In this document: piece after piece, positions 9,440 to 53,585 of the stretch | How positions within the stretch are numbered: the first letter of the stretch is position 1 | Layout: every line of letters starts with the position of its first letter | DNA from: Candidatus Moraniibacteriota bacterium | GTDB lineage: Bacteria > Patescibacteriota > Minisyncoccia > Moranbacterales > UBA2206 | Assembly: GCA_037137555.1 (NCBI GenBank) | Contig: JBAXKA010000001.1 | Span: 1,874 to 65,873, forward strand | Direction: 5' to 3' | DNA: 64,000 nt | Position numbers and translations under genes: made by a program | Notes under the pieces: model-generated | Told to the model about the DNA's origin: nothing | The model's database searches: none | Seen by the model: only the letters and a program-made list of their open reading frames with translations

Positions 9440-9460
9440 TAATAAATTAACAAAAAAAAT

Positions 9461-10168
9461 ATGCCCAGACCAATTACAACATTGTTTATGCTCACTTCGG
9501 TTGATGGTAAAATTTCAACAGTCAGTAATGACAAATTAGATGTTGATAAAGATTTTCCAAGAATAAAAGGCCTCAAGGAAGGCTTGAAACAATATTATGA
9601 AATTGAACAAGCGACTGATTCACATTCATTGAATTCGGGCAGAGTGTTAGCAAAAGTTGGAGCAAATAAACCACAAAAGAATATTGTAAAACTACCAGTT
9701 AGTTTTTTGATAATTGATAATAAGCCCCACTTGAATTGCACTGGCGTAGATAATTTTCTTAAAAAAAGCAAAAAGCTCTACATCATCACAACAAATAAAG
9801 TGCATCCTGCTTTTCAAAGAAAGACTGCTAATAATTTGGAAATCATCTACTACAAAAACAAAATTGATTTTATTGATTTATTCAGAAAATTAAAACAAGA
9901 ATATGGAATTAGTCGATTAACTATTCAAACGGGAGAAACACTCAACGCAATTTTTTTGAGGAATAAATTGATTGATAAAATTTCACTTGTAATTGCTCCA
10001 GCTTTAATTGGTGGAGAAAATACGCCATCATTGATAGCTGGAAAGTCACTATCTTCTCTCAAGGAGCTTGCCCTGATAAAAGCGTTGAAATTAACCGAGG
10101 TAAAAAAATTAAATGATTCTTATTTAAATTTAAAATACGATGTCATCAATGACACCGAAATCGATTGA
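9461..10168 (+). CDS. dihydrofolate reductase-family protein (RibD C-terminal domain-like reductase)
   Basis: LFMLTSVDGKIS N-terminal motif and C-terminal ISLVIAPALIGGE motif, typical of the RibD_C/DHFR-like fold. Confidence 0.6.
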   Translation: MPRPITTLFMLTSVDGKISTVSNDKLDVDKDFPRIKGLKEGLKQYYEIEQATDSHSLNSGRVLAKVGANKPQKNIVKLPVSFLIIDNKPHLNCTGVDNFLKKSKKLYIITTNKVHPAFQRKTANNLEIIYYKNKIDFIDLFRKLKQEYGISRLTIQTGETLNAIFLRNKLIDKISLVIAPALIGGENTPSLIAGKSLSSLKELALIKALKLTEVKKLNDSYLNLKYDVINDTEID

Positions 10169-10256
10169 TTTTTAAATACACAAACTAAACATTTCCCTTT
10201 TTTTAAAAATAGTGTATACTAAAAATTCGAGTATTATCAATTAATTTTTACGCACT

Positions 10257-11708
10257 ATGTCCACCAATGAAGTTGCTATCAGATTTAATGAAGTTTCTTT
10301 TGAATATTCCCGTGATAAAATCATTCTTGATGATGCTTCTTTTTCTTTGCGTCAAGGAGCAAAAGTAACTTTAATGGGACAAAATGGTGCTGGTAAAAGC
10401 ACGCTATTGGAAATGATCACAGGAGCATTAAAACCAAAATCAGGCACAATTCATGTCGCAAAAAATCTCACTATCGCCTATGCCAAGCAAGTTATTCCTC
10501 GTGACGAATTAGATCTTACGGTGAATGATTTTTTTGCTAAACGCTTTACGGAAAAAATTTATAATCTGACTCCGCGTATTGATAAAGTTTTAAATGTGGT
10601 TAATTTAAAAGCACCGCATGATCGAATTATCAAATCTTTTTCTGGCGGACAACAAGCTCGCTTGCTTCTTGCTTCAGCAATTATTTCTGATCCGGATTTA
10701 TTAATTCTTGATGAACCAACTAACAACCTTGATCCGGCTGGCATTGAGCATTTAACTCAATTTTTAATCAACTCCACAAAAACTTGCTTAGTCATTTCGC
10801 ATGATGCTGATTTTTTAAATTCTTTTACTGATGGCGTTCTCTATTTAGATATTTTTAATCACAAAACCCAACAATATCTCGGCGACTACTATTCTGTTGT
10901 GGAAGAAATTGCCGCGCAAATTGAAAAAGAAAAACGCAAAAATGCTCAATATGAAAAAGAAATTATTGCTAATAAAGAAAAGGCTAATTTTTTTGCAAAC
11001 AAGGGTGGAAAAATGCGACTTGTCGCCAGAAGAATGCGTGACAAGGCAGCGGAAATGGAAGAAGCCAAAGTAGATATTCGAAGAGAAGACAAAGCCATTC
11101 GTCCATTCGAAATACCTTGCCAAGCAGAATTGGGCGGAGAAGTTTTACATATCGATTCTGTTACGATTGTTAAAAATTATGAACCAACGGAAAAAACCGT
11201 CAATGTTTCATTGCGTAAAAATCAGCATCTACTTCTTTCCGGACCAAATGGTATTGGCAAAAGCACCCTACTCGAATCAATTGCCAAAGGAGAAACACTT
11301 AGTGCAAAAATTCTAACTGATGTTCGTGTCGGTTATTATCGCCAAGATTTTTCTACTCTTAATTTTGAAGATACGGTTTATGATTCCCTACTTTCGGTCA
11401 TGAAACTAAAAGACGAAGAAAAAATGCGTTCAGTTGCCTCAGGTTTTTTACTCACAAAAGAATGTGTCTATGCTAAAATCGGCAGTCTTTCTGAAGGTCA
11501 AAAAGGTCTCGTGGCTTTCGCCCAACTCGTTTTGCTTGAGCCGGGACTTTTAATTCTTGACGAGCCAACTAATCACATCAATTTTCGCCATTTACCTATT
11601 ATTGCTAAAGCCTTAGATGAATACACTGGTGCAATGGTGCTCGTTAGTCATGTGCCAGATTTTGTCGCCCAAATTAGAATCGATGAAGTACTTGATCTTG
11701 AAAGATAA
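10257..11708 (+). CDS. ABC ATPase with tandem nucleotide-binding domains (ABC-F-like, no TM domain)
   Basis: Two Walker A motifs (GQNGAGKST, GPNGIGKST), two LSGGQ/LSEGQ signatures, two Walker B (LILDEPTN), linked by a charged region. Confidence 0.8.
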   Translation: MSTNEVAIRFNEVSFEYSRDKIILDDASFSLRQGAKVTLMGQNGAGKSTLLEMITGALKPKSGTIHVAKNLTIAYAKQVIPRDELDLTVNDFFAKRFTEKIYNLTPRIDKVLNVVNLKAPHDRIIKSFSGGQQARLLLASAIISDPDLLILDEPTNNLDPAGIEHLTQFLINSTKTCLVISHDADFLNSFTDGVLYLDIFNHKTQQYLGDYYSVVEEIAAQIEKEKRKNAQYEKEIIANKEKANFFANKGGKMRLVARRMRDKAAEMEEAKVDIRREDKAIRPFEIPCQAELGGEVLHIDSVTIVKNYEPTEKTVNVSLRKNQHLLLSGPNGIGKSTLLESIAKGETLSAKILTDVRVGYYRQDFSTLNFEDTVYDSLLSVMKLKDEEKMRSVASGFLLTKECVYAKIGSLSEGQKGLVAFAQLVLLEPGLLILDEPTNHINFRHLPIIAKALDEYTGAMVLVSHVPDFVAQIRIDEVLDLER

Positions 11709-11744
11709 TTTATTTTATTTTAGTTTTAGTTTAATTTTTTATTT

Positions 11745-12869
11745 ATGGTCTTTTTGCAAATTACTTTTTTTCTCACACTTTTAGTTTTAACGCTTTTTGG
11801 TTCGCATTATTTTTTATATGCATCACTAATTAAATTTTTTCCTTTTTTACATAACTATAAAAAGCTTTTGTTTATTACGCTTTTTTTATTAGCTATTAGT
11901 TTTATTTTGACTTCAATTCTTGCGCATGTGCGTGAAGATTTGGCTACTCGTGCCAGCTATTTACTCTCTGGTTTTTGGCTTGGATTTTTGACCAATCTTG
12001 TTTTGGCTATTTTAATTATTAGTTTTCTTAATTGGCTATTTAAACTAGCTGGTATCAATTTTAATCTCTCACTTATTGCTCTGATTTCTTTTAGTTTAGC
12101 TTTTGTTTTTTCACTTTATGGAAGCTGGAATGCTTTTCAGCCAAGACTGAAAAATATTACAGTTACAATTCCTAATTTACCCGAAAATTGGCAAGACAAG
12201 AAAGTCGTGCAACTCGCAGATGTGCATTTAGGATTAATTTATCGCAAGGATTTTCTGCAAAATATTATTGACCAAATAAATCCCCTCAACCCCGAACTAG
12301 TACTTATTACTGGAGATTTTTTTGATGGCATGGATGGAAAGCTAGATCTTTTAATCTCACCATTAAATAATCTCAAAACTGCTCAAGGAACTTTTTTTGT
12401 CAACGGAAATCATGAAACATATTTGGGCACAGAAAAAACAATTGCCACGCTCGAAAAAAATAAAGTCCAAATTCTTAAAGATCAGGTTGTGGATATTTCC
12501 GGATTAAAACTAATTGGCATTGGTTATCCAGAACGAGATTTAAAAAAAGATATTATTATTACGCTACAAGAATTAAAATCCCAGTTTTTTGGCAAGCCAA
12601 ATATCTTGCTTTATCATTCCCCTACTAACATACACCAATTTGCAGAAAATGGTGTCAATTTACAACTTTCTGGCCACACCCATTTGGGACAAATTTTTCC
12701 TTTTAATCTTATCACGAAACTAATTTATCACGGCTATGATTATGGATTGCACACAATAAACAATTACACAATTTATATTAGTAGTGGTTTGGGTACATGG
12801 GGACCAGCTATGCGCACAAATAGCACTCCAGAAATTGTCGTAATCACATTAAAAAATAAAACCAACTAA
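11745..12869 (+). CDS. membrane-anchored calcineurin-like metallophosphoesterase
   Basis: N-terminal TM helices, then DVHLG, GDFFDG, GNHE, GHTH phosphoesterase motifs. Confidence 0.75.
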   Translation: MVFLQITFFLTLLVLTLFGSHYFLYASLIKFFPFLHNYKKLLFITLFLLAISFILTSILAHVREDLATRASYLLSGFWLGFLTNLVLAILIISFLNWLFKLAGINFNLSLIALISFSLAFVFSLYGSWNAFQPRLKNITVTIPNLPENWQDKKVVQLADVHLGLIYRKDFLQNIIDQINPLNPELVLITGDFFDGMDGKLDLLISPLNNLKTAQGTFFVNGNHETYLGTEKTIATLEKNKVQILKDQVVDISGLKLIGIGYPERDLKKDIIITLQELKSQFFGKPNILLYHSPTNIHQFAENGVNLQLSGHTHLGQIFPFNLITKLIYHGYDYGLHTINNYTIYISSGLGTWGPAMRTNSTPEIVVITLKNKTN

Positions 12870-12883
12870 ACAGGAGGTGTAAA

Positions 12884-13339
12884 ATGAAAAAAATTGTTCT
12901 TTGCATTATTATTCGGCACAGAGAGATTTTGCTTTTGGAATATGAACGGGGATCGCTTATGCTCCCAGGCGGACATATTGAAAAAGAAGAAACTCCAAGT
13001 ATCGCCGCCAGGAGAGAAATTCATGAAGAGCTGGGACTGAAAAATCAGCCCGTTCAAGTCATTGAACTTAAAGATTGGGGAAAGATAAAAGAATACGAAA
13101 AAGTAAGTTATCATCTTTATCTCGCTCATCTGGACAGTTTCGGAAAAGAATTTCAAATGTCTCCTCAAAAAGAAGAAGGCATAAAAAGTTTCATCTGGGT
13201 TAATCCATGGGAATTATTTAGCTCTTGGGAATCCGATGGATTTTGGCGGAATATAAAAATAAGAAATAAGATGACTGAGATCGCCAAAGAAGCCATCGAG
13301 CTTTTTATCAGCCAGCCCATTATTAAAATCATGGTCTAG
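12884..13339 (+). CDS. NUDIX hydrolase
   Basis: Nudix box GGHIEKEETPSIAARREIHEELG. Strong RBS AGGAGG upstream. Locally higher GC than the flanks. Confidence 0.7.
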   Translation: MKKIVLCIIIRHREILLLEYERGSLMLPGGHIEKEETPSIAARREIHEELGLKNQPVQVIELKDWGKIKEYEKVSYHLYLAHLDSFGKEFQMSPQKEEGIKSFIWVNPWELFSSWESDGFWRNIKIRNKMTEIAKEAIELFISQPIIKIMV

Positions 13340-13373
13340 GAAGAGGAGAGATCTATGATAAAAAAACAAAAAA

Positions 13374-13410
13374 ACCGGCCAAAGCTAAACATAGCTTTGT
13401 CGGTTTTATT
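13374..13410 (+). terminator. rho-independent terminator after the NUDIX gene
   Basis: Hairpin CCGGCCAAAGCTA-aaca-TAGCTTTGTCGG followed by a T-run. Confidence 0.6.
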
Positions 13411-13427
13411 TTTTTTAAAAATTTCTT

Positions 13428-14270
13428 GTCATAAAAATATAGCTATGTCATAGTAGCGTTTTCTAGAAATGTCATACCTGCTAAGATATTGAGTTAATCA
13501 TTAAGCTCAATATCAATGTGATCAAAAGCGGAACACAAGGAATTATCCACAAACTAAGAAATAAGACGGGCAACAATAAATTAGAAAATAAACTTTTGGA
13601 AAAAGCCAAAAAACTGCTTAAAAAAAGTATTCTGATTTCGGTCCAACATTAGCAACAGAGAAACTAATGGAACTGAATAAAATCAATTTGGGCGTAACGA
13701 CAATTCGCGAGTTAATGATCGAAGAAAAATATTGGAAACCAAAAGTGAGAAAACAAAATCAAGTCCATAAAGTATATTCCTAATTTCAATCAAAGGTTTG
13801 CAGTTATTCCTACCAAAAAAACTGATTTGCACAAACCACTAACCAAAAATGAAAAAGAAAACCTAGCTAAAATATTTTCCATTCAGTCTAAGCGATAAGT
13901 TAAAAATGATTTCACTATTCAATTTAAAAACACATAGTATCAATTAAAAGAAATTCAACTCACAACCGTTTATCGCAGAGATGAAATTTTGATTGAAGAA
14001 AGATTAGACAATTCGATTCATCTAAGCAAAAAAGCTCAGTATCTTAATTTTGAAAAGTTACCCCAAAGACCTGAAAAAGTTAAAATGAAACTGCTGGCTA
14101 TTACTCCACAAAAAACTTCATGAATACCACCGATCAATCATCCTTGGAGAGTGAGAATGGCAGCTCAATTTAAGCAAAAACAATTAGCCCATAATTCTCT
14201 TGTTTCGCAAGTATGACATTTTAAAAAAACGCGGGGGTATGACATTTCTATATAATTTTGACATACGGAA
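13428..14270 (+). mobile_element. degraded IS element (ISNCY/ISPlu15-like transposase remnant) with terminal inverted repeats
   Basis: A frame-broken translation gives FGPTLATEKLMELNKINLGVTTIRELMIEEKYWKPKVRKQNQVHK, which resembles the N-terminal part of ISNCY-family transposases; several stops and frameshifts follow. Ends: ...TAGAAATGTCATACC (13466-13480) and GGTATGACATTTCTA (14237-14251) are perfect inverted 15-mers. Confidence 0.55.
13495..13800 (+). pseudogene. transposase pseudogene fragment (ISNCY-like N-terminal region)
   Basis: Same evidence as the mobile element above. No intact ORF longer than about 40 codons. Confidence 0.5.
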
Positions 14271-14375
14271 CTAATTATTGACAATTTCTTATATATAATC
14301 TATCCTGATTTCCATTAGCATTTGTATGCTAATAATTGTTCATTAACATTTTTGATATCGAAAGGAAAGCCCACT

Positions 14376-16013
14376 ATGAGAAAAACTATTTTTGGCACGA
14401 TTCTAATTTGTTTTTTGTCTTTATTATTTGTTGGTTCGTTAATGGCAACCGCTCCCCCAGTATTTATTTTGGGGAATATTTTAGTTGATATTCGAGAAAA
14501 TACTTGCAGACCAATTCATGGTCTGGGCATATCTGGACTGGAATATGGGATTCCGCATGTTGATAATCTCATATGTCCGGCAAGATACCCTGGAACAGCG
14601 GGTACTGATTATTTTGTTCCGAGCTCATCACAGTTTCAATCTGCCAAAAGCCTCGGATCCAGAGTGGTCAGACTGCCCTTTGATCTCGGACGCTTAGTCC
14701 CAGGCTCATTGAACATAAATTATGTCCCTGGCAAGGACATTGTGTTCGATCAGGTTTACCTGGGATATTTAAGACAATGCCTAGGGATGGCACAAGATTA
14801 CGATCAACTGCTAATCCTGGACATGCATAATTATCTATACTACATTGATGATTATGCGAAAAAAATATTCTTGATTAATGATTCATTGATTCATCGAGAA
14901 CTATTAAATCAAACATGGACACAGCTCGTGCAGGAGTTTGCAAATAGTCCTGCATTGTTTGGTTATGAAATTATGAACGAACCAAATAAAACCTCCCATG
15001 AATCAAATTGGCTGTCTATTGCCCAATCGGCAATAAATAGAATCAGAGAGGTTGATTCTGACCACTTTGTTTTCGTCAACGGAAAAACATTCAGCAGTGC
15101 TGGCGGATGGCTGAATGCTGAAAATGACAATCTGGAAAAATTAACCGATACAGCAAGCAAACTGGTTTTTACTCCCCATCTATATGCCGATTCCAATTAT
15201 AATGGAAAATACGATGGGGAGATAGACGATTATCCACCAGACGGGTGGAAAAGCGAACTCTATCGATTGGCCTGGGGCGCAATTAAATGGTCACGGGAAT
15301 ACAACAAGCCACTACTTTTTGGCGAAGTTGGCTTCCTGACAAAAACTGATGCGTGGGATATTGTTTTCAAAGAACTCCTGCGTGAATATTTAATGCTTCA
15401 TAATGTAGGAATAATTCTGTGGGCATTAGAACCAGAAGATATTCCTCATCAAGATACATACATTCTTGGCGAGAGCAAGGCCATCGCCAAAACATTTGCA
15501 GAATACTCCACCAAAAAAATAAACTTTCAAAATAGAAATGGTGGGGATTACATTTTCCACAATAACCTCCAAAATGGTTACCAGGTTTATGCCTGGGAAG
15601 GAGTGGCGTCTAGAATACTAGAAGCTGGTGGCTTGGACAATAGTCCAAGTCTAAGCATACACTTCAATGGCAATTGGAGTGATGGCTTTGACATAGCCAG
15701 CAAAAATATCAAAGATGAACACTCTGACTTTGATATTAGAGGCTCCTTGAATGTTTCCTTTTATTACAAAGGGGAAGCGAGTCTCCGAACGAGTTTTTGT
15801 GACGAAAGCATTTCTGGTTGTGGACAAATCATTGTTACACCCAGACAAGCAGAACTCACAAAGATAGAAATTCCAATCACACAACAAATGCTCCCATCTA
15901 GTGGCAAATTTGATCGCATCAAATTTCAAACTGGCGATGGAGCTTTTGTCGGGGATATTATCCTCGATGAAATAATATTAACACCCTGCATTCAAAAAAG
16001 AACGCAGGGTTGA
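14376..16013 (+). CDS. secreted glycoside hydrolase family 5 (cellulase/mannanase-like)
   Basis: Signal peptide/TM (MRKTIFGTILICFLSLLFVGSLMA). The GH5 catalytic acid/base motif FGYEIMNEP and the nucleophile region (FGEVG). Start moved to the Met at 14376, which has a good RBS. Higher GC than the genome background. Confidence 0.8.
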   Translation: MRKTIFGTILICFLSLLFVGSLMATAPPVFILGNILVDIRENTCRPIHGLGISGLEYGIPHVDNLICPARYPGTAGTDYFVPSSSQFQSAKSLGSRVVRLPFDLGRLVPGSLNINYVPGKDIVFDQVYLGYLRQCLGMAQDYDQLLILDMHNYLYYIDDYAKKIFLINDSLIHRELLNQTWTQLVQEFANSPALFGYEIMNEPNKTSHESNWLSIAQSAINRIREVDSDHFVFVNGKTFSSAGGWLNAENDNLEKLTDTASKLVFTPHLYADSNYNGKYDGEIDDYPPDGWKSELYRLAWGAIKWSREYNKPLLFGEVGFLTKTDAWDIVFKELLREYLMLHNVGIILWALEPEDIPHQDTYILGESKAIAKTFAEYSTKKINFQNRNGGDYIFHNNLQNGYQVYAWEGVASRILEAGGLDNSPSLSIHFNGNWSDGFDIASKNIKDEHSDFDIRGSLNVSFYYKGEASLRTSFCDESISGCGQIIVTPRQAELTKIEIPITQQMLPSSGKFDRIKFQTGDGAFVGDIILDEIILTPCIQKRTQG

Positions 16014-16118
16014 TAAAGAAACAATCCCGAAGTGTATATTTTATACTTCGGGATTTTTAATTATTTAAACTCGTTTGTTTCTAGCATAAAGTTTATTTCC
16101 TGAGTTATTAAAAAATAT

Positions 16119-17123
16119 TTAATCCGCTATTAAATTCTTAATAATTTTCACCATAATTTCTTTTTCTTTTGGATCACTTTCTGCGACAAGAAGCGCGAGC
16201 GCCGTGAGAGCATTATCATTAATCTTTCTCTCACCGCTCATACGATAGAGATAATCCGACTTGTCTAGAAAATATACGAACAAAAATGCACCTGAGCGTT
16301 TATTGCCATCAGAAAATGGATGGTCTTTGATCGTGAAATATAAGAGATGTGCCGCTCGATCTTCGATTGTTGGATAGAGTTCTTTTTTGCCAAAAGTTTG
16401 ATAAAGTCCCTTGACAATTCCCTCAAAACTCCCGCCTCTTGCTTGCCCAAATAAATCGCTAGCTTCTTTTTTATTAACTAGCTCTTTTTTCAATTCCAAA
16501 ATTACTTGCAAGCATTTTTTATAGGATAGCACAAATTTAGTTTTTCCGCCCCTCATTTCTTTCAAACTCCCTTTGTCATATTGTTCGAGCATTGTCAATG
16601 TTTTAGCATAAGCAGAAAGTAAATTCAAAATCTCACCAGATTGTCCTGCCAGCAATTCTTTTTTTGACTTTTTTTGCAAAAAATCAATGGTCATTTTTAG
16701 TTCATTGAATTTTTCTTGTGCTTCCATGAGGCGTTTTTCATTAATGACATAGCCTTGTAGCAAATATTTTCTTAAAACATTTGTCGCCCATTTTCTAAAA
16801 TGAATAGCTCTTGCAGAATTTGTCCTGTAGCCCACCGCTAAGATAACATCCAAACCATAAAACATCACTGGTTTATCAGAATTTGCAATGTGCAAAAAAT
16901 GCACATTACTTTTTTCGTCTATTTCTTTGTCGGAAAAAATTGCTTTAATGTGCTTAGCAATGACAGATCTTTCTTTTCCAAACAAAGTTGCAATTTCTCT
17001 TTGTCTAAGCCAGATAGCCTCCTCTTTAAATTGCACTTCCAACTCAACCTCATTTTTCGTGGTTTTATAGATAATAATTTCACCTCTATTGAATTCGTCT
17101 TTTTTTATTGTAGTTTTTTTCAT
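16119..17123 (-). CDS. RhuM-family N-terminal domain fused to a Fic/Doc (Fido) domain protein
   Basis: N-terminus GEIIIYKTTKNEVELEVQFKEEAIWLRQREIATLFGKERSVIAKHIKAIF (RhuM-like). C-terminal Fic motif HPFSDGNKRSGAFL, i.e. HPFx[DE]GN[G>K]R. Confidence 0.7.
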   Translation of the reverse strand: MKKTTIKKDEFNRGEIIIYKTTKNEVELEVQFKEEAIWLRQREIATLFGKERSVIAKHIKAIFSDKEIDEKSNVHFLHIANSDKPVMFYGLDVILAVGYRTNSARAIHFRKWATNVLRKYLLQGYVINEKRLMEAQEKFNELKMTIDFLQKKSKKELLAGQSGEILNLLSAYAKTLTMLEQYDKGSLKEMRGGKTKFVLSYKKCLQVILELKKELVNKKEASDLFGQARGGSFEGIVKGLYQTFGKKELYPTIEDRAAHLLYFTIKDHPFSDGNKRSGAFLFVYFLDKSDYLYRMSGERKINDNALTALALLVAESDPKEKEIMVKIIKNLIAD

Positions 17124-17143
17124 AAAATTTATTTTCTAATCAT

Positions 17144-18256
17144 CTAATTATTTGAACTAGTCTGCTTAGAAATATTTAAAAGCACACCGATTCCCGCCAT
17201 CAGAAAAATAAGAGATGTTCCGCCATAGCTAATAAACGGTAATGGAATTCCTGTGAGTGGAATAATTCCAGAAATGGCTGAAATATTAATGAGGGCTTGA
17301 AAAGTTATCCAGCAAGTAATGCCCACTGCGGTAAGTTGCGAAAAACGATCTGGTGCATTTTTGGCAATCCGAAAACCGATCATGGCAAGAGCTAAAAATA
17401 AAAAAACTAAAATTAAAACTCCGATCAGTCCCAATTCTTCTCCGATAATGGCAAAAATAGAATCGCCGACTGGTTCTGGCAAATAATTAAATTTTTGCAT
17501 GCTATGCCCCAATCCTACTCCAAAAATTCCACCTGAACCAATAGCCAGAAGTGCTTGATTAATTTGATAGCCAATTCCTCGCGGATCTAATTCGGGATGC
17601 AAAAAAACTAAAAATCGATCCATACGATAAGATTCAAATTTAATTAGCAGTGCAAGTGCCGCGAAACCAGAACCAGCAATCATAAACATATGGGAAAGTC
17701 TGGCACCGGAAATAAAAAAAATCGACATAGCAATAAAAATAATCACACCAAGCGTTCCCATGTCCGGTTGTTTTTCCAAAAGAAAACTAACCACACCAAC
17801 CACTGCTAAAAATGGCAACAAACCTTCATAGAAATCCTTCACTTTTTCCGCGCGACTTTCCAGCCAAGCTGACAGATAAATAATAATTGCTAATTTTAGC
17901 ATTTCTGAGGGCTGAAAAGAAAACGGACCAAGTTGCAACCAACGACTCGCACCATAAACTTTGGAGCCGACACCTGGTACAAAAACTAAAATAAGCAAAA
18001 AAATACTCAGAATAAAAAAAGGAAAAGCAATTTTTCTCCAAAAATTATAATTGATTTTTTGAGTTACATATAAAATAAATAATCCTGGCAAAACTCCATA
18101 AAATAATTGATGCTTAAAAAAATAATAAGAATCACCAAAGCGACTACGCGAATAAGCGATGCCAGCCGAAGCAATCATTGCCAAACCAAAAATAACTAAC
18201 AGTGAAGTTATAAATAATAAGTTTTTATTTATTTCATGTTCTTTATATTTTGTCAT
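17144..18256 (-). CDS. SEDS-family peptidoglycan glycosyltransferase (RodA/FtsW)
   Basis: Ten TM helices and the conserved SEDS motifs (PSE, GHSMQKFNYLPEPVGDSIFAIIGEELG). Confidence 0.85.
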   Translation of the reverse strand: MTKYKEHEINKNLLFITSLLVIFGLAMIASAGIAYSRSRFGDSYYFFKHQLFYGVLPGLFILYVTQKINYNFWRKIAFPFFILSIFLLILVFVPGVGSKVYGASRWLQLGPFSFQPSEMLKLAIIIYLSAWLESRAEKVKDFYEGLLPFLAVVGVVSFLLEKQPDMGTLGVIIFIAMSIFFISGARLSHMFMIAGSGFAALALLIKFESYRMDRFLVFLHPELDPRGIGYQINQALLAIGSGGIFGVGLGHSMQKFNYLPEPVGDSIFAIIGEELGLIGVLILVFLFLALAMIGFRIAKNAPDRFSQLTAVGITCWITFQALINISAISGIIPLTGIPLPFISYGGTSLIFLMAGIGVLLNISKQTSSNN

Positions 18257-18905
18257 TTTTTTCTCGCCATTTTTTTATTTCATTATGATTTCCGCTCATA
18301 AGCACTGCTGGCACTGGCCAATTATTAAATTCTTGCGGTTTGCTATATTGTGGATGTTCTTTGTAGTTTTTAATTTTATGGGATTCATTTTTAGCGCTTT
18401 CAGCATTTCCCAATACTCCAGGCAAAAGTCGTGCAACAGAATCAACAATAATTAACGCGGGAATTTCTCCGCCCGTAAGCACATAATCTCCAATAGAAAT
18501 TTCCTCATCAGCAATATTTTTTGCCACTCGCTCATCTACGCCTTCATAGCGTCCACAAATCAAAACCAAATTAGTATATTTTGCCAACCGCTCTGCTGTT
18601 CTTTGTGTATATTTTTTGCCCTTAGCTGAAAAAAGAATTATTCGTGTATTAGCTTTATTTTGTTTTTTAGTAATTATTTTTTTTATTTTCTCAACACAAG
18701 CATAAATCGGCTGAACTTGAAGCACCATTCCTGCTCCTCCGCCATATGGCGTATCATCAACCTTACCATTTTTATCGTCCGTATAATCTCGCAAATTATG
18801 CGTAAAAATTTCAATAAATTTATTTTTTTGAGCACGCCCAATAATTGATTCTTGCAAATAAGAATTTAAAATTTGAGGAAAAATTGTGATGATGTCGAAA
18901 CGCAT
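18243..18905 (-). CDS. trmD: tRNA (guanine37-N1)-methyltransferase TrmD
   Basis: MRFDIITIFPQIL start, SPOUT knot motifs (LICGRYEGVDERV, YVLTGGEIPALIIVDSVARLLPGVLGN). Confidence 0.9.
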   Translation of the reverse strand: MRFDIITIFPQILNSYLQESIIGRAQKNKFIEIFTHNLRDYTDDKNGKVDDTPYGGGAGMVLQVQPIYACVEKIKKIITKKQNKANTRIILFSAKGKKYTQRTAERLAKYTNLVLICGRYEGVDERVAKNIADEEISIGDYVLTGGEIPALIIVDSVARLLPGVLGNAESAKNESHKIKNYKEHPQYSKPQEFNNWPVPAVLMSGNHNEIKKWREKNDKI

Positions 18906-18925
18906 ATTTTTTGGTGATTATTTTC
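18875..18925. repeat. 51-bp direct repeat, copy 1 (contains the authentic trmD start codon and first 11 codons plus 7 bp upstream)
   Basis: GAGGAAAAATTGTGATGATGTCGAAACGCATATTTTTTGGTGATTATTTTC is identical to 21690-21740. Confidence 0.9.
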
Positions 18926-20000
18926 CAGATTTAGTTCGATTACAATTCTTACAAAGCATCTGGCAATTTTTTGAAATTGTTTTTCCGCCTTCGTGCCAAG
19001 GTGTGATATGATCAGCTTCCATTTCTTCTGTTTCAAAATGTTCTTTGCATTTTATGCAAATGCCTTTTTGTTTTTCATAAATTTCCCTTTTTTGTTTATC
19101 TGCAAAAGCACGGATATTTAAATATTTTTCATTTCTTGTCAGAACATAAGGATAAATTCCAGATTTTTTTGTTACATCTTCATCTTGCATTAGTTTTGTG
19201 ATTTCTTCTTCTAATTTTTCAAAATCAACTTCTTGATCTTTGAATCGATTGTATAAATTCCCAAAAGAAACGCCTTTCATTTCTTTGCGATAATTGGGAA
19301 AAACAGCTTTAATCCAATTTATTATGCTTTGAAAATAGAGCCACAACTCATTGGCGTTTGGCTTGTGCTGATTTTCTGCCATATACTGCTCAATGTTTTC
19401 ATCACTAATCCACGAAATAGCCGTTTCTAAATATTCTTGACGAATACTAGAACCATTTAAATAATCACTTCCAATACCATAGGCAGGGCAACCAGATTTA
19501 CTAAAATATCTTTTGGCATCAGTTAACCAAGTGCCAGTATAAATTGCATTTCGCAATTCTTGATCAGTTAATTTTTCACCAGCGATATTAATTGTTTTAA
19601 ACCAATCTAGTTTTTCCTTATCATTTCCCTCGCAAAAATAAACCATAAGTTTATAATTCAAAATTTGCTCTTGCTCTATGTCGGTAAGATTGTGAAAAGA
19701 TAAGTTATTTAGAAAAAAATTGCCTACCACATATTCGCAAATACTAATTGTGCGTTGTTGTCCGTCCAAAACTTCAAAAGTTCCATCTTCATTTTTCACC
19801 CAATACATTACATTTAATGGAAAACTTTTTTGCACAGTTTCAATCACTAAATCTCTTTGCTTATCCTTATACACAAATTCTCTTTGATATTTTGGACGGA
19901 TATTTAGTTTTCCACTATAGCCAACCACACCTTCTTCATCATTATTAGCATACGCATCAACAATTTCTCTGATTGCGATTTCTTGTAGTTTAATTTTCAT
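18918..20000 (-). CDS. DUF262 (ParB/GmrSD N-terminal-like, DGQQR motif) domain fused to a C-terminal HNH endonuclease domain
   Basis: LDGQQRTISI motif. C-terminus CIKCKEHFETEEMEADHITPWHEGGKTISKNCQMLCKNCNRTKSGK is an HNH/zinc-finger nuclease motif. Confidence 0.75.
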   Translation of the reverse strand: MKIKLQEIAIREIVDAYANNDEEGVVGYSGKLNIRPKYQREFVYKDKQRDLVIETVQKSFPLNVMYWVKNEDGTFEVLDGQQRTISICEYVVGNFFLNNLSFHNLTDIEQEQILNYKLMVYFCEGNDKEKLDWFKTINIAGEKLTDQELRNAIYTGTWLTDAKRYFSKSGCPAYGIGSDYLNGSSIRQEYLETAISWISDENIEQYMAENQHKPNANELWLYFQSIINWIKAVFPNYRKEMKGVSFGNLYNRFKDQEVDFEKLEEEITKLMQDEDVTKKSGIYPYVLTRNEKYLNIRAFADKQKREIYEKQKGICIKCKEHFETEEMEADHITPWHEGGKTISKNCQMLCKNCNRTKSGK

Positions 20001-20011
20001 AAATAGTATAA

Positions 20012-20299
20012 TTAAAAGTTATTTTTTCTAGCCAATTCTGGTAATTTTTCAAATTGATTATGTATCAACGCTTCTTTTTTTTCTCTTCTCCAACCTTGCA
20101 CTTGCTTTTCTCGATAAAATGCTTCATCAATTCTAGCATATTCTTCAAAATAAACTAATTTAACTGGCAATCTCTTTTTTGTGTGATTTGCACCTTTTCC
20201 TGATTGATGTTGAGCCAAACGAAATTCCAAATCTTTTGTACTTCCAGTGTAGTAACTACCATCAGCACATTCTAAAATATACATGTATCCTTTACTCAT
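20012..20299 (-). CDS. GIY-YIG nuclease family protein (short, about 95 aa)
   Basis: [31 protein letters not shown]...QGWRREKK. Start set at MSKGYMYIL (20299). The longer 151-aa ORF reads through the repeat array and is an artefact. Confidence 0.75.
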
Positions 20300-20640
20300 A
20301 CCCGTTGGTTGAGCTTGTCGAAACCAATACTTACTAATTCGCAGGTGTTGCCTTCGATAAGCATAGACATTGTGTGTTGCCTTCGACGGGTGTGTTGCCT
20401 TCGACGGGCTCAGGCAACGGGAACGCATCCGTTGGTTGAGCTTGTCGAAACCAACTGTCGAAACCAATCACCTACTCGTTGGTTGAGCTTGTCGAAACCA
20501 ACACTCACACCAATTCGCTGAGTGTTGCCTTCGATAAACTCAGGCAACGGAGAAGGGTGTTGCCTTCGACGGGCTCAGGCAACGGGAACGCATTGTTGGT
20601 TGAGCTTGTCGAAACCAACTATCGAAACCAACACCCACCT
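20300..20640. repeat. array of about 10 hairpin repeat units of two related types in alternating orientation
   Basis: Type A is CGTTGGTTGAGCTTGTCGAAACCAAC (4 near-perfect copies). Type B is GTGTTGCCTTCGACGGGCTCAGGCAACGG (2 full copies plus 3 partial or variant copies). Both share the architecture stem-TCGAC-nn-GCTC-stem, read on opposite strands. Confidence 0.8.
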
Positions 20641-21601
20641 AAATTTTCTTGTTTTTAATTAAAATTCTAAAATATGGACACTTTCCATTTATGCTTAAAT
20701 CTTTTTCATCATCACCTTTGCGAAATTTTATAATCTCAAACTGCTCCGGATTATATTTATCTAAAAAAGTAATCGGCACGCCCATCGTTCCGGCATAATC
20801 CATTGGGATATCTTTTGTCTTATTAATATTTATTGCATCATAATTATCATATTTTGGATAATCTTCTGGATTATATTGTTTGTATAAAATTAAATCTTCG
20901 TGTCGTTTATTTATTTCTAAGTTAGTGAACCAGACAACACCAGAAACTCTAATCATTCCATCCTTATGATCTCCAGCAGTTGCATAATCTTCATAATGCG
21001 TATTAATAAAATGTGCCGCCCCACCATTAAACCCATAGCCTAGCCATAATTTATCATCCTTGATCAATTTAAATATTTCTTTATATGTTATAGCATTTTG
21101 ATGTCCAATAATAATAAACTTCTTATCATACTCAACCAATTGTGCCACATATTCCCGAAACAAAGAAAAAGGCGGATTAGTCACCACGATATCAGCTTGC
21201 TTTAAAAGTTCAATACATTCAGGACTTCTGAAATCACCATTCTTTTTTAAATGCTTGATACCAATTTCTGAAATATCTGGCACTCGATTTTCATTTTTAT
21301 CGCCAATGTATTCCAAATAAATCGCTTTTTCAGAATTATTTTGACTGAACAAATCGACACTTTGATTTTTATAACAAGTTGTGATTAATTTTTTGAGTCC
21401 TAGAAATTCAAAATTATAGGAAAAATAATGAAAAAAATTGCTCACTCTTGGATCATCGCAATTGCAAAAAACTGTTTTGCCCTTGAAATGATTTTTATAA
21501 TGAGCTAACTCTCTAGTGATATCCGCAAGTTGTGTATAAAACTCATCATTTTTGGCTTTGTTGGCTTTATGTAAATTTTGATTGGAAGATTTTCCTGCCA
21601 T
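20639..21601 (-). CDS. N6-adenine DNA methyltransferase, EcoRI-methylase-like family
   Basis: NPPF motif IV (IVVTNPPFSLFREY). N-terminus DEFYTQLADITRELAHYKNHFKGKTVFCNCDDP and C-terminal PMDYAGTMGVPITFLDKYNPEQFEI recall the M.EcoRI family, recalled from memory rather than searched. Confidence 0.6.
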   Translation of the reverse strand: MAGKSSNQNLHKANKAKNDEFYTQLADITRELAHYKNHFKGKTVFCNCDDPRVSNFFHYFSYNFEFLGLKKLITTCYKNQSVDLFSQNNSEKAIYLEYIGDKNENRVPDISEIGIKHLKKNGDFRSPECIELLKQADIVVTNPPFSLFREYVAQLVEYDKKFIIIGHQNAITYKEIFKLIKDDKLWLGYGFNGGAAHFINTHYEDYATAGDHKDGMIRVSGVVWFTNLEINKRHEDLILYKQYNPEDYPKYDNYDAININKTKDIPMDYAGTMGVPITFLDKYNPEQFEIIKFRKGDDEKDLSINGKCPYFRILIKNKKI

Positions 21602-21689
21602 AAAATTGAATAAATTGCTTAATTATTTTCAGCATATCTTTTTTTTATTTTGTGCCGTATTTCTATTATACCAAAACAAATCAAATCTC

Positions 21690-21740
21690 GAGGAAAAATT
21701 GTGATGATGTCGAAACGCATATTTTTTGGTGATTATTTTC
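21690..21740. repeat. 51-bp direct repeat, copy 2 (a dead trmD 5' fragment: ATG then 10 matching codons, then divergence)
   Basis: Identical to 18875-18925. Overlaps the stop codon of the downstream ATPase gene. Confidence 0.9.
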
Positions 21741-23034
21741 TTAAAAACTCCTCAAAAAAGTTTTTTATTTCAATCTTTCCTCCTTCTACCTTTATCTCTT
21801 CCGAATAACCCATCGTAATAAGCTGAGCTTTTTTAAGTTTAAATTTTTTCATCGCTTCTTTCAATCCAGCGATTTCTCTCTCTCTGTTTCCCTCATTCAA
21901 CTCCCAACAAGCATTTATTGCTTTTTCAATTTTAACGCCTTTTCGCAAAAGAAAATCTATTTCATTTTTTCCTTTCCAATAAAAAATATCTTCGCCTTTT
22001 CGACGATATTCTAGAAAAACCATATTTTCAAAAATACGCCCCAAATTTTCACTGAATCGAAAAGAAACTGCTCGATAAATTCCCAAATCAATAACATACA
22101 CTTTCTCCGGATTAGCTTTTTGCTTCAAATAAGAATAGTCAAATAAATTTATTCCTTGAGTTAAAAAAACATCCTGAGCGTAAGTAAAAAATTTATTCGC
22201 CGTAGGTTGAGAAATAGCCAGAGTTTTTTCCGCCCGATAACCGGAAAAGCTAGTAGCAATACTAGTTACTAGGTTTATATAATACTCCTTAATCTTTTTA
22301 GTATCTCGCACATCATATCTCTGCACAATATCTTTTTCGATAATAGAAGAATAATAATCTTTTAAGAGTTGTAATTTATCTTGAACTTTCGAACTCAGAA
22401 CCACGCGTGGAAAACCACCATACCGCAAATATTCCATAAACTGATTTTTCAATGCCGGCAGTTCCCTTCCGCCAGAAAAATTAATTAGCTTTTGTTTATT
22501 TTTAAAAAGCAGAAACTCCCAAAAACTCAAAGGAAATATTTCATTAGTATAAATTCTTCCCGTAAGTGCTGTACCATATTCCTTGGAAAGTAACTTGGAG
22601 GACGAACCAGTTATATAGAATTTTATTCGTTCTTCCCGATCATGGAGACCACGAACAAATTTTTCCCATCCGTCTATATACTGAACTTCATCAAGCACAA
22701 TTAAAATTTTTCCTTCGGGACTGAATTTTTCCAAATAAGCATCCAGCAATTGAGCGAGAAACTCCAATTTCAGTTGTGGTGCGAAGGCTGGCTCTTCAAA
22801 ATTGATATAGAGAGTATTCTCCTTGGGAAGTCCCTGCTCAACAGCTTTTTTTAAAACCTGAAGTAAAATAGTAGATTTTCCTGATCGCCTAATTCCAGAA
22901 ACTATTGAAACTTCTTTGATATTCTTTTGTCGCAACAATTCTTTCACATAGCCAACCCGCTCTATGCCTGTTTCACGCACACCACCCCACAAATTCCAAT
23001 AAGCCAGAATTTCAATGATTTGCACTTTATTCAT
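21733..23034 (-). CDS. AAA ATPase (AAA_14/DUF4143-like, 'ATP-binding protein' family), copy 1 of 3
   Basis: Walker A GIRRSGKST, Walker B ILIVLDEVQY. Paralogous to 36581-37891 and, more distantly, 35226-36365. Confidence 0.75.
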   Translation of the reverse strand: MNKVQIIEILAYWNLWGGVRETGIERVGYVKELLRQKNIKEVSIVSGIRRSGKSTILLQVLKKAVEQGLPKENTLYINFEEPAFAPQLKLEFLAQLLDAYLEKFSPEGKILIVLDEVQYIDGWEKFVRGLHDREERIKFYITGSSSKLLSKEYGTALTGRIYTNEIFPLSFWEFLLFKNKQKLINFSGGRELPALKNQFMEYLRYGGFPRVVLSSKVQDKLQLLKDYYSSIIEKDIVQRYDVRDTKKIKEYYINLVTSIATSFSGYRAEKTLAISQPTANKFFTYAQDVFLTQGINLFDYSYLKQKANPEKVYVIDLGIYRAVSFRFSENLGRIFENMVFLEYRRKGEDIFYWKGKNEIDFLLRKGVKIEKAINACWELNEGNREREIAGLKEAMKKFKLKKAQLITMGYSEEIKVEGGKIEIKNFFEEFLRK

Positions 23035-23167
23035 ACATAAGTATAGTTTAGCAATTTATATCAAAATACTAAAGTATATTTTAGTATTTGTCAAGCGATT
23101 TAATTCGCCCTTTATTTTCAAAAACAACATTTATTCATGCTACATATTCATTATACCAAAACAAATC

Positions 23168-53564: not shown

Positions 53565-53585
53565 TACCCACAATAGGAGGAAAAA

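What the first reader, a model, noticed from the sequence alone, without database searches (positions are those of the whole stretch)
12880..16020. GC-richer acquired block: NUDIX, degraded ISNCY-like IS with intact terminal inverted repeats, and a secreted GH5 glycoside hydrolase
Composition rises visibly above the ~30% GC background from the NUDIX gene through the GH5 gene. Between them is an IS remnant. Its transposase is shattered by stops and frameshifts (FGPTLATEKL...KYWKPKVRKQNQVHK). Both 15-bp terminal inverted repeats (GGTATGACATTTCTA) are still recognisable at 13466-13480 and 14237-14251, about 790 bp apart. A signal-peptide GH5 (NEP catalytic motif) is an unusual catabolic capacity for a streamlined, probably episymbiotic lineage. 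It may reflect horizontal acquisition of polysaccharide-degrading ability, possibly to attack host or biofilm glycans.
Basis: partly seen in the sequence, partly recalled or inferred. Interest (0 to 1): 0.5.

Follow-up and report, generated by a model that had tools for sequence, protein, structure and literature searches.

The report
Dead insertion sequence beside accessory cellulase
In this Moraniibacteriota (candidate phyla radiation) genome, a dead, internally deleted IS1202-family insertion sequence lies exactly where two unrelated gene blocks were joined, one ending in a NUDIX gene and the other starting with an intact secreted GH5 beta-glucanase; this is ordinary genome flux, not one imported GC-rich block.

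Summary
All three annotations hold: NUDIX hydrolase (12884-13339), ISNCY-type IS relic, and GH5 glycoside hydrolase (14376-16013).

**The relic.** It runs 13427-14263 (837 bp, TGT...ACA ends), not 13466-14251. It pairs non-equivalent copies of a TGTCAT(A) site; each ~58-bp end has three TGTCA-core sites, the outermost being the terminus itself. The relic belongs to the IS1202 family. It lacks about 140 bp of the N-terminus and the whole DDE core (about 485 bp). It has three in-frame stops and no target-site duplication.

**Not one block.** In a sister strain (about 95-97% nucleotide identity) NUDIX and GH5 lie on different contigs in different contexts. Homology on each side stops within about 13 bp of the relic ends. 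The relic therefore marks a rearrangement junction.

**Composition.** Only GH5 is a GC outlier (0.40, 96th percentile). The block as a whole is not (0.365, 83rd percentile), and the relic is below average (0.31).

**GH5.** It has a signal peptide, a GH5_5-like barrel with all catalytic residues, and a CBM-like beta-sandwich. It is under purifying selection (dN/dS 0.12). Outside its own species-level cluster the closest relative is 38% identical. Old horizontal acquisition is plausible but unproven.

Ordinary finding; low-to-moderate interest.

The parts
12884..13339 (+). NUDIX hydrolase gene (151 aa) with a complete Nudix box. It is the last gene of the ABC-F / metallophosphoesterase / NUDIX synteny block.
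   Evidence: Pfam PF00293 at E 2e-14. The block is 95% identical to sister-strain L050 from 9440 to 13414. Against the sister strain dN/dS is 0.09 and dS 0.42. The only homologue cluster found in the k-mer search is its own (P0242, 92% identity).
13363..13416 (.). Bidirectional intrinsic terminator after NUDIX: hairpin 13380-13399 flanked by an A-run and a T-run. Homology with the sister strain ends here.
   Evidence: Terminator scan, inverted repeat I3, and the end of the L050 alignment at 13414.
13427..14263 (+). Relic of an IS1202-family (ISNCY) insertion sequence, 837 bp, with TGT...ACA termini. It is non-autonomous and has no target-site duplication.
   Evidence: The left end is fixed by 91% identity to an independent copy (L042 127-39) that starts exactly at 13427. 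The right end is fixed by three independent copies whose similarity stops at TTTGACA, 14263. The pseudo-protein hits NF033594 at E 1e-30. Full copies of relatives are about 1352 bp (L045/L046). No TSD is found at any length from 3 to 28 bp.
13427..13484 (+). Left terminal inverted-repeat region with three TGTCA-core sites: the terminal TGTCATA (13427-13433) and two internal ATGTCATA sites (13445-13452 and 13469-13476, followed by CC to 13478).
   Evidence: Inverted pairs I1, I2, I4 and direct repeat D7; three-way alignment A4.
13518..13783 (+). N-terminal helix-turn-helix part of the transposase pseudogene. About 140 bp are missing after the start codon, and there is a frameshift near 13640. 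The DDE-core deletion junction lies at 13762-13782.
   Evidence: Six-frame translation and protein alignment A1, in which the relic skips roughly columns 138-300. By blastn, 13569-13761 matches L002 69-262 and 13783-14264 matches L002 748-1229, so about 485 bp are absent. The intact ATG and N-terminus are seen in L042.
13784..14215 (+). C-terminal part of the transposase pseudogene, with three in-frame stops (near 13897, 13937 and 14121). The original stop codon lies inside the first right-end site.
   Evidence: tblastn gives 65% identity to P0003 residues 176-337.
14204..14263 (+). Right terminal inverted-repeat region with three TGACA-core sites: two internal TATGACAT sites (14212-14219 and 14238-14245) and the terminal TGACA (14259-14263).
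   Evidence: alignment A2 of four right ends.
14278..14306 (+). Probable native GH5 promoter (TTGACA, 17 nt, TATCCT), 14 nt downstream of the IS end. It is conserved in the sister strain, which has no IS here.
   Evidence: Promoter scan, 10 of 12 matches. Alignment A3 shows homology with L042/L043 starting at about 14274-14277. This is a consensus match only; function is inferred.
14376..16013 (+). GH5 glycoside hydrolase gene (545 aa). It comprises a signal peptide (aa 1-25), a (beta/alpha)8 catalytic domain (aa ~29-377, nt 14460-15506) and a C-terminal CBM-like beta-sandwich (aa ~390-540, nt 15543-15995). The acid/base residue is E202 (14979-14981) and the nucleophile E317 (15324-15326).
16023..16055 (+). 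Intrinsic terminator of GH5.
   Evidence: Terminator scan: 14-pair stem plus T-run. It is conserved in L042.
16119..17123 (-). RhuM-Fic/DOC gene (context only). It is an insertion/deletion difference from the sister strain and separates GH5 from ftsW.
   Evidence: Pfam PF13310 and PF02661. It is absent in L042/L043. It is bracketed by an imperfect repeat of about 25 bp of the ftsW 3' end.

Best explanation
The flagged stretch is three independent things that came to lie side by side in a Candidatus Moraniibacteriota genome.

1. **IS relic (13427-14263).** This is a dead copy of an IS1202-family insertion sequence.
   - Intact relatives are about 1.35 kb and encode a DDE transposase of about 405 aa.
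   - Their ends are TGT...ACA, with the terminal site plus two internal Tn7-like transposase-binding repeats per end.
   - One relative shows a 16-bp target duplication.
   - The window copy keeps both ends. It has lost about 140 bp of the N-terminus and the whole catalytic core, and it carries stops and frameshifts. It cannot move by itself.
2. **A rearrangement junction.** The relic sits exactly at a synteny breakpoint.
   - To its left is the ABC-F / phosphoesterase / NUDIX block. To its right is the GH5-ftsW block.
   - In a sister strain these blocks are unlinked, and homology stops within about 13 bp of each IS end.
   - The likeliest history (inferred) is that IS copies at two loci recombined, or an IS-adjacent deletion or inversion occurred. 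This joined the blocks, left a hybrid element without matching target duplications, and the element then decayed.
3. **GH5.** This is an intact, selectively maintained accessory gene with its own promoter and terminator.
   - A Sec signal peptide exports a retaining GH5_5-like endo-beta-1,4-glucanase, with E202 as acid/base and E317 as nucleophile.
   - The catalytic domain is tethered to a beta-sandwich glycan-binding module.
   - It most probably cleaves soluble or amorphous beta-glucans outside the cell to yield oligosaccharides for a fermentative cell.
   - It occurs only in this species-level clade and was probably acquired long ago from an unsampled source.

NUDIX is a separate, intact housekeeping-type pyrophosphohydrolase gene.
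For: **Lineage.** FtsW is 88-91% identical to named Moraniibacteriota MAGs. The GH5 protein equals MEI7425309.1.

**IS identity and ends.**
- NF033594 hit at E 1e-30, and 81 homologues, with the most complete relatives about 400-408 aa.
- Alignment A1 shows the DDE core missing from the relic. Relatives carry SPQAKGRVERLFxTLQ, that is Q at E+7. This is the IS1202-family hallmark (PMC10132070).
- Left end at 13427 and right end at 14263.
- Full copies are 1352 bp with TGT...ACA ends, and one relative has a 16-bp TSD, AGATATTGATTTTGAT.
- The window copy has no TSD.

**Breakpoint.**
- L050 homology runs 9440-13414 and then diverges into DHH/isp genes.
- L042/L043 homology starts at 14277, preceded there by a histidine kinase and, beyond it, an IS left end.
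- L041 is 100% identical to the window, so the junction is not an assembly artefact of one data set.

**GH5.** dN/dS is 0.12. Among 5.8 billion 90%-identity clusters searched, the only matches were its own cluster (six near-identical member sequences) and one 31%-identical protein. The next relative in the exhaustive search is 38% identical.

**Composition.**
Against: - The direction of the rearrangement is not known, because no outgroup has either arrangement. The sister strain could be the derived one, and the IS could be a bystander that simply inserted into an already existing junction.
- Only 64 kb of this genome was examined, so a second IS copy, which a recombination model requires, has not been seen in this strain.
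- No SignalP-type tool was available. The signal peptide is judged from the sequence (MRK + 20 hydrophobic residues + ATA|PP) and an AF2 N-terminal helix.
- The closest solved enzymes are only 25-28% identical, so substrate specificity is an inference.
- The C-terminal domain model has only moderate confidence (pLDDT 66.5).
- No transcript or activity data exist.
Confidence: 0.75

Rival explanations
1. First reader's model. NUDIX, the IS and GH5 form one GC-rich island that entered the genome together by horizontal transfer, with the IS as the vehicle or a scar of the transfer.
For: NUDIX and GH5 both have raised GC3 (0.37 and 0.36, against a mean of 0.29). Both are restricted to this species-level cluster. 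Both show high dS against the sister strain.
Against: In the sister strain the two genes are on different contigs in different contexts, and neither is next to an IS relic. Block GC is at the 83rd percentile, and the IS itself is AT-richer than average. NUDIX is collinear with the ABC-F and phosphoesterase genes on its left. An IS1202-type IS carries no passenger genes in its 1.35-kb form.
Confidence: 0.07
2. The IS relic is a simple old insertion between NUDIX and GH5 that decayed in place. The synteny differences arose independently in the sister lineage, and the IS played no part in the rearrangement.
For: The relic is heavily decayed (two deletions, three stops), so it is old enough for a 16-bp TSD in AT-rich intergenic DNA to be eroded. 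The flanking intergenic DNA is only about 69% identical between strains. The whole region is highly rearranged between close relatives.
Against: Both homology boundaries fall within about 13 bp of the IS ends, an unlikely coincidence for unrelated events. The best flank match at 16-18 bp is only 50-53%. The sister strain has a copy of the same IS 1.8 kb from GH5, which shows that the IS was active at this locus.
Confidence: 0.2
3. GH5 is an ancient vertically inherited Patescibacteria gene that has been lost from most relatives. It is not a horizontally acquired one.
For: GH5 genes have been reported in Patescibacteria MAGs (PMC9868632). No donor is identifiable, as the best outside hit is 38% identical. 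Codon position 3 GC is only 1.2 SD above the mean. The gene is present in both sister strains at the same place relative to ftsW.
Against: None of 34 related loci has it near ftsW; in four close relatives (L010-L013) ftsW is followed by murG and murC. No protein above 40% identity exists outside its own cluster in 15 billion sequences, a collection that draws on NCBI genome records, though whether these particular related MAGs are in it was not checked. It is a top 2-4% composition outlier.
Confidence: 0.2
4. The 837-bp element is a functional non-autonomous (MITE-like) derivative that can still be mobilised in trans. Alternatively, it has been co-opted to drive or regulate GH5 through the outward-facing TTGACA at its right tip.
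For: Both TGT...ACA termini and all three binding-site repeats per end are retained. Arm complementarity (81-83%) is no worse than in intact relatives (79-92%). A TTGACA lies at the very tip (14258-14263), 16 nt from GACAAT.
Against: Only one copy is present in 64 kb, and no identical copies were found elsewhere. Promoter-like hits are no more frequent than in shuffles (14 found, 13.4 expected). A native promoter conserved in the IS-free sister strain is present downstream.
Confidence: 0.07

Closest known systems
IS1202 family (formerly the IS1202 group of ISNCY), long-TSD subgroup such as ISTde1 and ISCARN53 (Harmer, Pong and Hall 2023, PMC10132070)
   Same: - The transposase is homologous (NF033594).
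- The termini are 5'-TGT...ACA-3'.
- The terminal repeats are imperfect, about 26 bp, with additional internal copies of the binding site, as in Tn7 ends.
- Intact relatives are 1.35-1.41 kb with transposases of 404-408 aa. For comparison, ISTde1 is 1327 bp/394 aa and ISCARN53 is 1404 bp/407 aa.
- A 16-bp TSD is seen in relative L047.
- Q lies seven residues after the catalytic E.
   Different: - The window copy is a deletion derivative of 837 bp without the DDE domain and without a TSD.
- The host is a CPR bacterium. The curated family lists Gram-negative, Gram-positive and metagenomic elements only.
- Each end has three TGTCA-core sites, that is the terminal repeat plus two further internal copies, where the paper describes the IR plus one additional internal site.
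GH5 subfamily 5 endo-beta-1,4-glucanases: Pseudomonas stutzeri Cel5A (4LX4/6R2J), metagenomic RBcel1 (4EE9) and Thermoascus aurantiacus Cel5A (1GZJ). The subfamily label comes from my own knowledge of CAZy and was not tested here.
   Same: - The fold is the same (beta/alpha)8 barrel (Foldseek TM about 0.83-0.88 to the target, E about 1e-21).
- All GH5 signature residues are conserved, including the NEP acid/base and the GEx nucleophile.
   Different: - Sequence identity is only 25-28%.
- The window protein has an extra C-terminal beta-sandwich of about 150 aa with no Pfam match.
- Only three 50%-cluster representatives in 1.8 billion (P0084-P0086) share the full architecture.
- No cellulose-synthase genes lie nearby, unlike the bcs-linked Cel5A and RBcel1.
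Type-B beta-sandwich carbohydrate-binding modules (CBM29, CBM11, CBM8, CBM30, CBM4/22)
   Different: Sequence identity is 8-19%, and there is no Pfam or NCBIfam hit. Ligand-binding residues have not been identified. The model confidence is moderate (pLDDT 66.5 alone, 63-91 within the full-length model).

Membership tests
IS1202 family (ISNCY) | Transposase homologous to IS1202-family / ISNCY transposases | tested here: met
   The pseudo-protein hits NF033594 at E 1e-30 (107 bits). This is below the 250-bit full-length cut-off because only about 60% of the protein remains. It is 50-68% identical to its closest relatives, the most complete of which are about 400-408 aa.
IS1202 family (ISNCY) | DDE catalytic domain with Q (not K/R) seven residues after the E | tested here: not met
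   The whole catalytic core is deleted from the window copy. The feature is present in the intact relatives P0003, P0007, P0009, P0010, P0014, P0016 and P0018 as GRVERLFxTLQ. The copy is therefore a relic of a family member, not a functional member.
IS1202 family (ISNCY) | Outer ends 5'-TGT and ACA-3' | tested here: met
   13427-13429 is TGT and 14261-14263 is ACA. The boundaries are set by independent copies. The same ends are seen in L045/L046.
IS1202 family (ISNCY) | Imperfect terminal inverted repeats of about 24-26 bp plus an additional internal transposase-binding site near each end | tested here: met
   The outer pair is 13427-13452 / 14238-14263 (26 nt, 81%). The inner pair is 13456-13484 / 14204-14232 (29 nt, 83%). 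Each end carries three TGTCA-core sites: the terminus plus two internal ATGTCATA copies.
IS1202 family (ISNCY) | Target-site duplication of 3-5 bp or 16-28 bp (a few members have none) | tested here: not met
   No direct repeat is found at any tested length, with boundaries shifted by up to 3 nt either way; the best match at 16-18 bp is 50-53%. Relative L047 has a clean 16-bp TSD. The absence fits a recombinant or eroded copy.
IS1202 family (ISNCY) | Length 1.3-1.75 kb | tested here: not met
   The window copy is 837 bp. Relatives are 1352 bp (L045/L046) and about 1.41 kb (L047/L048).
Glycoside hydrolase family 5 | Match to the GH5 profile above the curated threshold | tested here: met
   PF00150 scores 113.8 bits against a cut-off of 23.5, over residues 75-353.
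Glycoside hydrolase family 5 | (beta/alpha)8 barrel with the acid/base Glu in N-E-P at strand 4 and the nucleophile Glu at strand 7, plus conserved R, H, H, Y and W | tested here: met
   The AF2 model has pLDDT 85, and Foldseek gives TM about 0.85 to GH5 endoglucanases. R99, H151, N201, E202, H268, E317 and W349 are invariant or at least 90% conserved in 56 sequences. The alignment to 4EE9 pairs GEVG with GEFG.
Glycoside hydrolase family 5 | Assignment to a CAZy subfamily (GH5_5 suspected) | not testable with these tools
   No CAZy or dbCAN subfamily models are available. The only evidence is that the nearest solved structures are enzymes I know as GH5_5, at 25-28% identity.
Glycoside hydrolase family 5 | Hydrolytic activity on a beta-glycan | not testable with these tools
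   This needs an enzyme assay.
NUDIX hydrolase superfamily | Nudix box GX5EX7REUXEEXGU within a Nudix fold domain | tested here: met
   PF00293 at E 2e-14. The box GHIEKEETPSIAARREIHEELGL can be read in the translation. The substrate is not assignable, as the best NCBIfam equivalog hits are far below their cut-offs.
Genomic island acquired as one unit | Contiguous block with shared atypical composition, absent as a unit from close relatives, and bounded by mobility signatures | tested here: not met
   Block composition is at the 83rd-86th percentile. NUDIX and GH5 are both present in the sister strain but unlinked. The IS lies in the middle of the block, not at its borders.

The most novel reading that the evidence does not exclude
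The GH5 protein together with P0084-P0086 would define a previously unclassified GH5 lineage fused to a new CBM family. In Moraniibacteriota it would be a recently mobile, recombining accessory cassette. The evidence for that is its mosaic 81-99% identity between strains, dS five to ten times that of the flanking core genes, and its position at a broken dcw cluster. An episymbiont would use it to harvest beta-glucan from its host's envelope or biofilm matrix.
Probability: 0.12. Interest if true: 0.5.

Novelty: new member of a known kind. Interest (0 to 1): 0.25.

Why it matters
The value lies mostly in correct annotation and in a small case study.

- **IS family.** It shows an IS1202-family element, a family formally proposed only in 2023, in a CPR genome, with Tn7-like multi-site ends.
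- **Genome plasticity.** It shows how such an element marks a rearrangement junction between two genomes that are otherwise about 95-97% identical. This illustrates that these tiny genomes are structurally fluid.
- **GH5.** The gene is a clean example of a strain-restricted, selectively maintained extracellular glycanase in a Moraniibacteriota genome. It adds to evidence that some Patescibacteria process polysaccharides themselves. Its C-terminal module is a candidate for a new CBM family.

None of this overturns current understanding.

Tried and rejected
1. **Exact look-ups.** Look-ups of the GH5 product as P0001 (553 aa) and as the 545-aa form found no contig on record. The cluster members P0236 and P0233 worked instead.
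2. **Metagenome scan.** The single metagenome-contig scan with GH5 returned only a 29%-identical relative. It gave no empty site.
3. **ftsW-anchored synteny.** Synteny in 34 GTDB genomes was meant to find an empty site. Only trmD-ftsW is conserved, so it showed only that GH5, NUDIX and the IS are absent near ftsW in relatives.
4. **TSD search.** An 8-nt AATTTCTT match lies 20 nt in from the right end. I judged it chance: it is AT-rich and not adjacent to the end.
5. **The 15-bp inverted repeat as statistical evidence.** Rejected, because simulated sequences give about 1.5 such pairs per 64 kb.
6. **C-terminal domain of GH5.** Pfam and NCBIfam searches found nothing, so only fold comparison was informative.
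7. **P0002 and P0084 as possible donors.**
   - P0002 lies in a polysaccharide-utilisation cluster on a 62% GC contig.
   - P0084 lies on a 47% GC contig.
   - At 31-38% identity neither is informative about a donor.
8. **Other IS copies.** A search of the window for further copies found none.
9. **The stronger composition outliers.** PHROG and Pfam searches of the outliers at 52.8-54.8 kb and 27.7-28.3 kb gave no hits.

Full report
**Observation**

The window averages 34.9% GC. Pfam confirms three flanking genes:
- a NUDIX hydrolase at 12884-13339 (E 2e-14);
- a GH5 'Cellulase' domain protein at 14376-16013 (E 1.3e-32);
- a metallophosphoesterase upstream and a RhuM-Fic protein downstream.

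Between NUDIX and GH5 no ORF exceeds 50 aa. A pseudo-protein stitched from them hits NCBIfam NF033594, 'ISNCY family transposase', at E 1e-30.

The 15-nt perfect inverted repeat exists at 13464-13478 / 14236-14250, 1-2 nt from the stated positions. On its own it is not significant. Markov-simulated 64-kb sequences contain about 1.5 such pairs, and the real window has two.

**True anatomy of the IS relic**

A search of 5.8 billion protein clusters gave 81 relatives, the most complete about 400-408 aa. Alignment shows what the window copy keeps and what it has lost:
- It retains the N-terminal helix-turn-helix region.
- It then jumps straight to the C-terminal third.
- The whole DDE core is gone.

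At the DNA level 13569-13761 matches L002 69-262 and 13783-14264 matches L002 748-1229, so about 485 bp are missing. A further 140 bp or so just after the start codon is also missing, judged against the intact start seen in L042. Three in-frame stops and frameshifts complete the decay.

The ends can be fixed by comparison with independent copies:
- **Right end.** Four right ends from unrelated contigs agree up to ...ATTTTGACA and then diverge. This places the end at 14263.
- **Left end.** A left end in sister-strain contig L042 is 91% identical from exactly 13427 (TGTCATAAA...) inward and unrelated outward.

The element is therefore 13427-14263, 837 bp, with TGT...ACA tips.

Each end is about 58 bp long and has three TGTCA-core sites: the terminus itself plus two internal ATGTCATA copies. 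The outer 26-nt arms are 81% complementary and the inner 29-nt arms 83%. It is real sequence, but out of register and internal.

**Family of the IS**

Harmer, Pong and Hall (PMC10132070) define the IS1202 family by these features:
- TGT/ACA ends;
- imperfect TIRs of 24-26 bp with an extra internal binding site, as in Tn7;
- length 1.3-1.75 kb and transposases of 394-507 aa;
- Q at E+7;
- TSDs of 3-5 bp, 16-28 bp, or none.

Intact relatives of the window element fit. L045/L046 give a 1352-bp unit with TGT...ACA ends. L047/L048 show a 16-bp duplication, AGATATTGATTTTGAT. The relatives carry GRVERLFxTLQ.

The window copy is thus a relic of a long-TSD-type IS1202-family element. It has no TSD at any length from 3 to 28 bp, even when the boundaries are shifted by up to 3 nt either way.

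**Lineage and comparative context**

FtsW, which lies next to the locus, is 88-91% identical to FtsW in named Candidatus Moraniibacteriota MAGs. The GH5 protein is identical to NCBI MEI7425309.1 from such a MAG.

An ENA contig (L041) is 100% identical over 8.5 kb, including the relic. The arrangement is therefore reproducible.

A sister strain from JGI sample 3300044991 is decisive.
- **Left block.** Its ABC-F / phosphoesterase / NUDIX block is 95% identical to window 9440-13414. It then continues into DHH, ispE, ispF, ispD, dxr and gltX, with no IS and no GH5 (L050).
- **Right block.** Its GH5 lies on another contig, preceded by a hybrid histidine kinase and followed directly by ftsW. Homology with the window begins at 14277 (L042/L043).
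- **IS copy.** Beyond the kinase, at the contig end, is a left end of the same IS with an intact transposase start.

Both homology boundaries lie within about 13 bp of the relic's ends. NUDIX and GH5 belong to different ancestral blocks, and the relic is the seam between them.

I infer, but have not shown, IS-mediated recombination or an IS-adjacent deletion or inversion, followed by decay. This would also explain the missing TSD.

The alternative is a simple old insertion with an eroded TSD plus unrelated rearrangement in the sister lineage. It cannot be excluded without an outgroup.

**Composition**

| Region | GC | Position in the window distribution |
|---|---|---|
| NUDIX | 0.377 | z = 0.55 |
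| IS relic | 0.311 | below the window mean of 0.349 |
| GH5 | 0.401 | 95.8th percentile; tetranucleotide distance 97.8th percentile |
| Block 12880-16020 | 0.365 | GC 83rd percentile; tetranucleotide distance 86th |

The strongest outlier in the window is at 52.8-54.8 kb, not here. The claimed GC-rich block is therefore really only GH5, and only mildly so. NUDIX and GH5 do share raised GC3 (0.37 and 0.36, against a mean of 0.29).

**The GH5 protein**

*Sequence features.* The N-terminus, MRKTIFGTILICFLSLLFVGSLMATA|PP, looks like a Sec signal peptide. This is my reading of the sequence; no predictor was available. A 56-sequence alignment keeps all GH5 signature residues: R99, H151, N201-E202, H268, E317 and W349.

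*Catalytic domain.* AlphaFold2 gives a (beta/alpha)8 barrel plus a C-terminal beta-sandwich (pLDDT 85, pTM 0.81). The barrel is closest to the endo-1,4-glucanases P. stutzeri Cel5A and RBcel1 (TM about 0.85, 25-28% identity). I know these as GH5_5.

*Selection and distribution.*
- Against the sister allele dN/dS is 0.12, so the gene is maintained.
- dS is 0.33, against 0.03-0.07 for ftsW, trmD and gmrSD.
- NUDIX likewise has dS 0.42, against 0.11-0.16 for its neighbours.
- GH5 identity is mosaic, from 81% to 99% in 150-nt windows.
- These patterns suggest allelic recombination, or suppressed gene flow next to the breakpoint.
- Outside its own 90% cluster (six sequences) the nearest proteins are 38%, 33% and 30% identical, in an exhaustive search of 1.8 billion representatives. 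The 38% relative lies on a 47% GC contig of unknown taxonomy.
- None of 34 related loci carries GH5 near ftsW. In four close relatives (L010-L013) ftsW is followed by murG and murC.

GH5 is thus a narrowly distributed accessory gene. Ancient horizontal acquisition is plausible, but no donor or recent event can be demonstrated.

GH5 genes have been reported before in Patescibacteria MAGs (PMC9868632). The capacity is not exceptional.

**Regulatory context**

- NUDIX ends in a bidirectional terminator (13380-13399 plus a T-run).
- GH5 has its own terminator at 16023-16055.
- A TTGACA-17-TATCCT promoter-like site at 14278-14306 is conserved in the IS-free sister strain. The relic sits 14 nt upstream of it without disrupting it.
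- The IS tip itself ends in TTGACA. Promoter-like matches in the region are no more frequent than in shuffles, so I make no regulatory claim.

**Verdict**

The annotations are right, the coordinates and the 'one acquired GC-rich block' interpretation are not, and the biology is ordinary. It is a decayed IS1202-family element at a rearrangement junction next to a strain-restricted, intact secreted GH5-CBM enzyme in a Moraniibacteriota genome.

- Novelty: new member of known kinds.
- Interest: about 0.25.

Noticed in passing
window 16057-17167 (RhuM-Fic gene 16119-17123, minus strand): The RhuM-Fic/DOC gene is absent from sister strain L042/L043, where the GH5 terminator abuts ftsW. In the window it is bracketed by an imperfect direct repeat of about 25 bp of the ftsW 3' end (about 16057-16083 and 17141-17167). 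A 25-aa C-terminal relic of it follows ftsW in L006 (11199-11273).
   Followed up: partly
window 18918-23034 (minus strand): A defence-type gene run lies next to trmD-ftsW: GmrSD/HNH, GIY-YIG, an EcoRI-like adenine methylase and an AAA_14/DUF4143 ATPase. The ATPase segment (about 21685-23150) is missing in the sister strain.
   Followed up: partly
window 52815-54791 (plus strand): This is the strongest composition outlier of the whole window (GC 0.41-0.48, GC3 0.40-0.46). It contains two ORFs of 249 and 401 aa with no Pfam or PHROG hit. It is a better candidate for foreign DNA than the flagged block.
   Followed up: partly
window 27753-28292 (plus strand): A 179-aa ORF has GC 0.44 and GC3 0.47 (z about 3) and no Pfam or PHROG hit.
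   Followed up: no
window 12884-13339 and 14376-16013, compared with L050 and L042: The two genes flanking the IS relic have synonymous divergence from the sister strain of 0.42 and 0.33. Genes further from the junction have 0.03-0.16. GH5 identity is mosaic (99% at 14577-14876, 81% at 15177-15326). This suggests recombination between divergent alleles, or reduced gene flow beside the breakpoint.
   Followed up: partly
window 14264-14283; L002 1229-1250; L004 about 1931-1952; L003 about 6090-6110: In all four loci with a right end of this IS family, a TTGACA-like hexamer lies 14-15 nt beyond the IS tip. In the window that hexamer belongs to the native GH5 promoter. This could be a target preference or chance (n = 4).
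   Followed up: no
window 17144-18905, compared with L010-L013: In four close Moraniibacteriota relatives (L010-L013) ftsW is followed by murG and murC, the usual dcw order. In this genome the cluster is broken right after ftsW, and murG and murC are not within the 64 kb. Only trmD-ftsW is syntenic across 28 related genomes.
   Followed up: partly
window 20299-20641: Short repeated segments of 25-29 nt recur several times, and there are small tandem repeats (18-nt unit at 20372-20408, 13-nt unit at 20443-20467). They lie in and upstream of the GIY-YIG gene and differ in copy arrangement from the sister strain.
   Followed up: no
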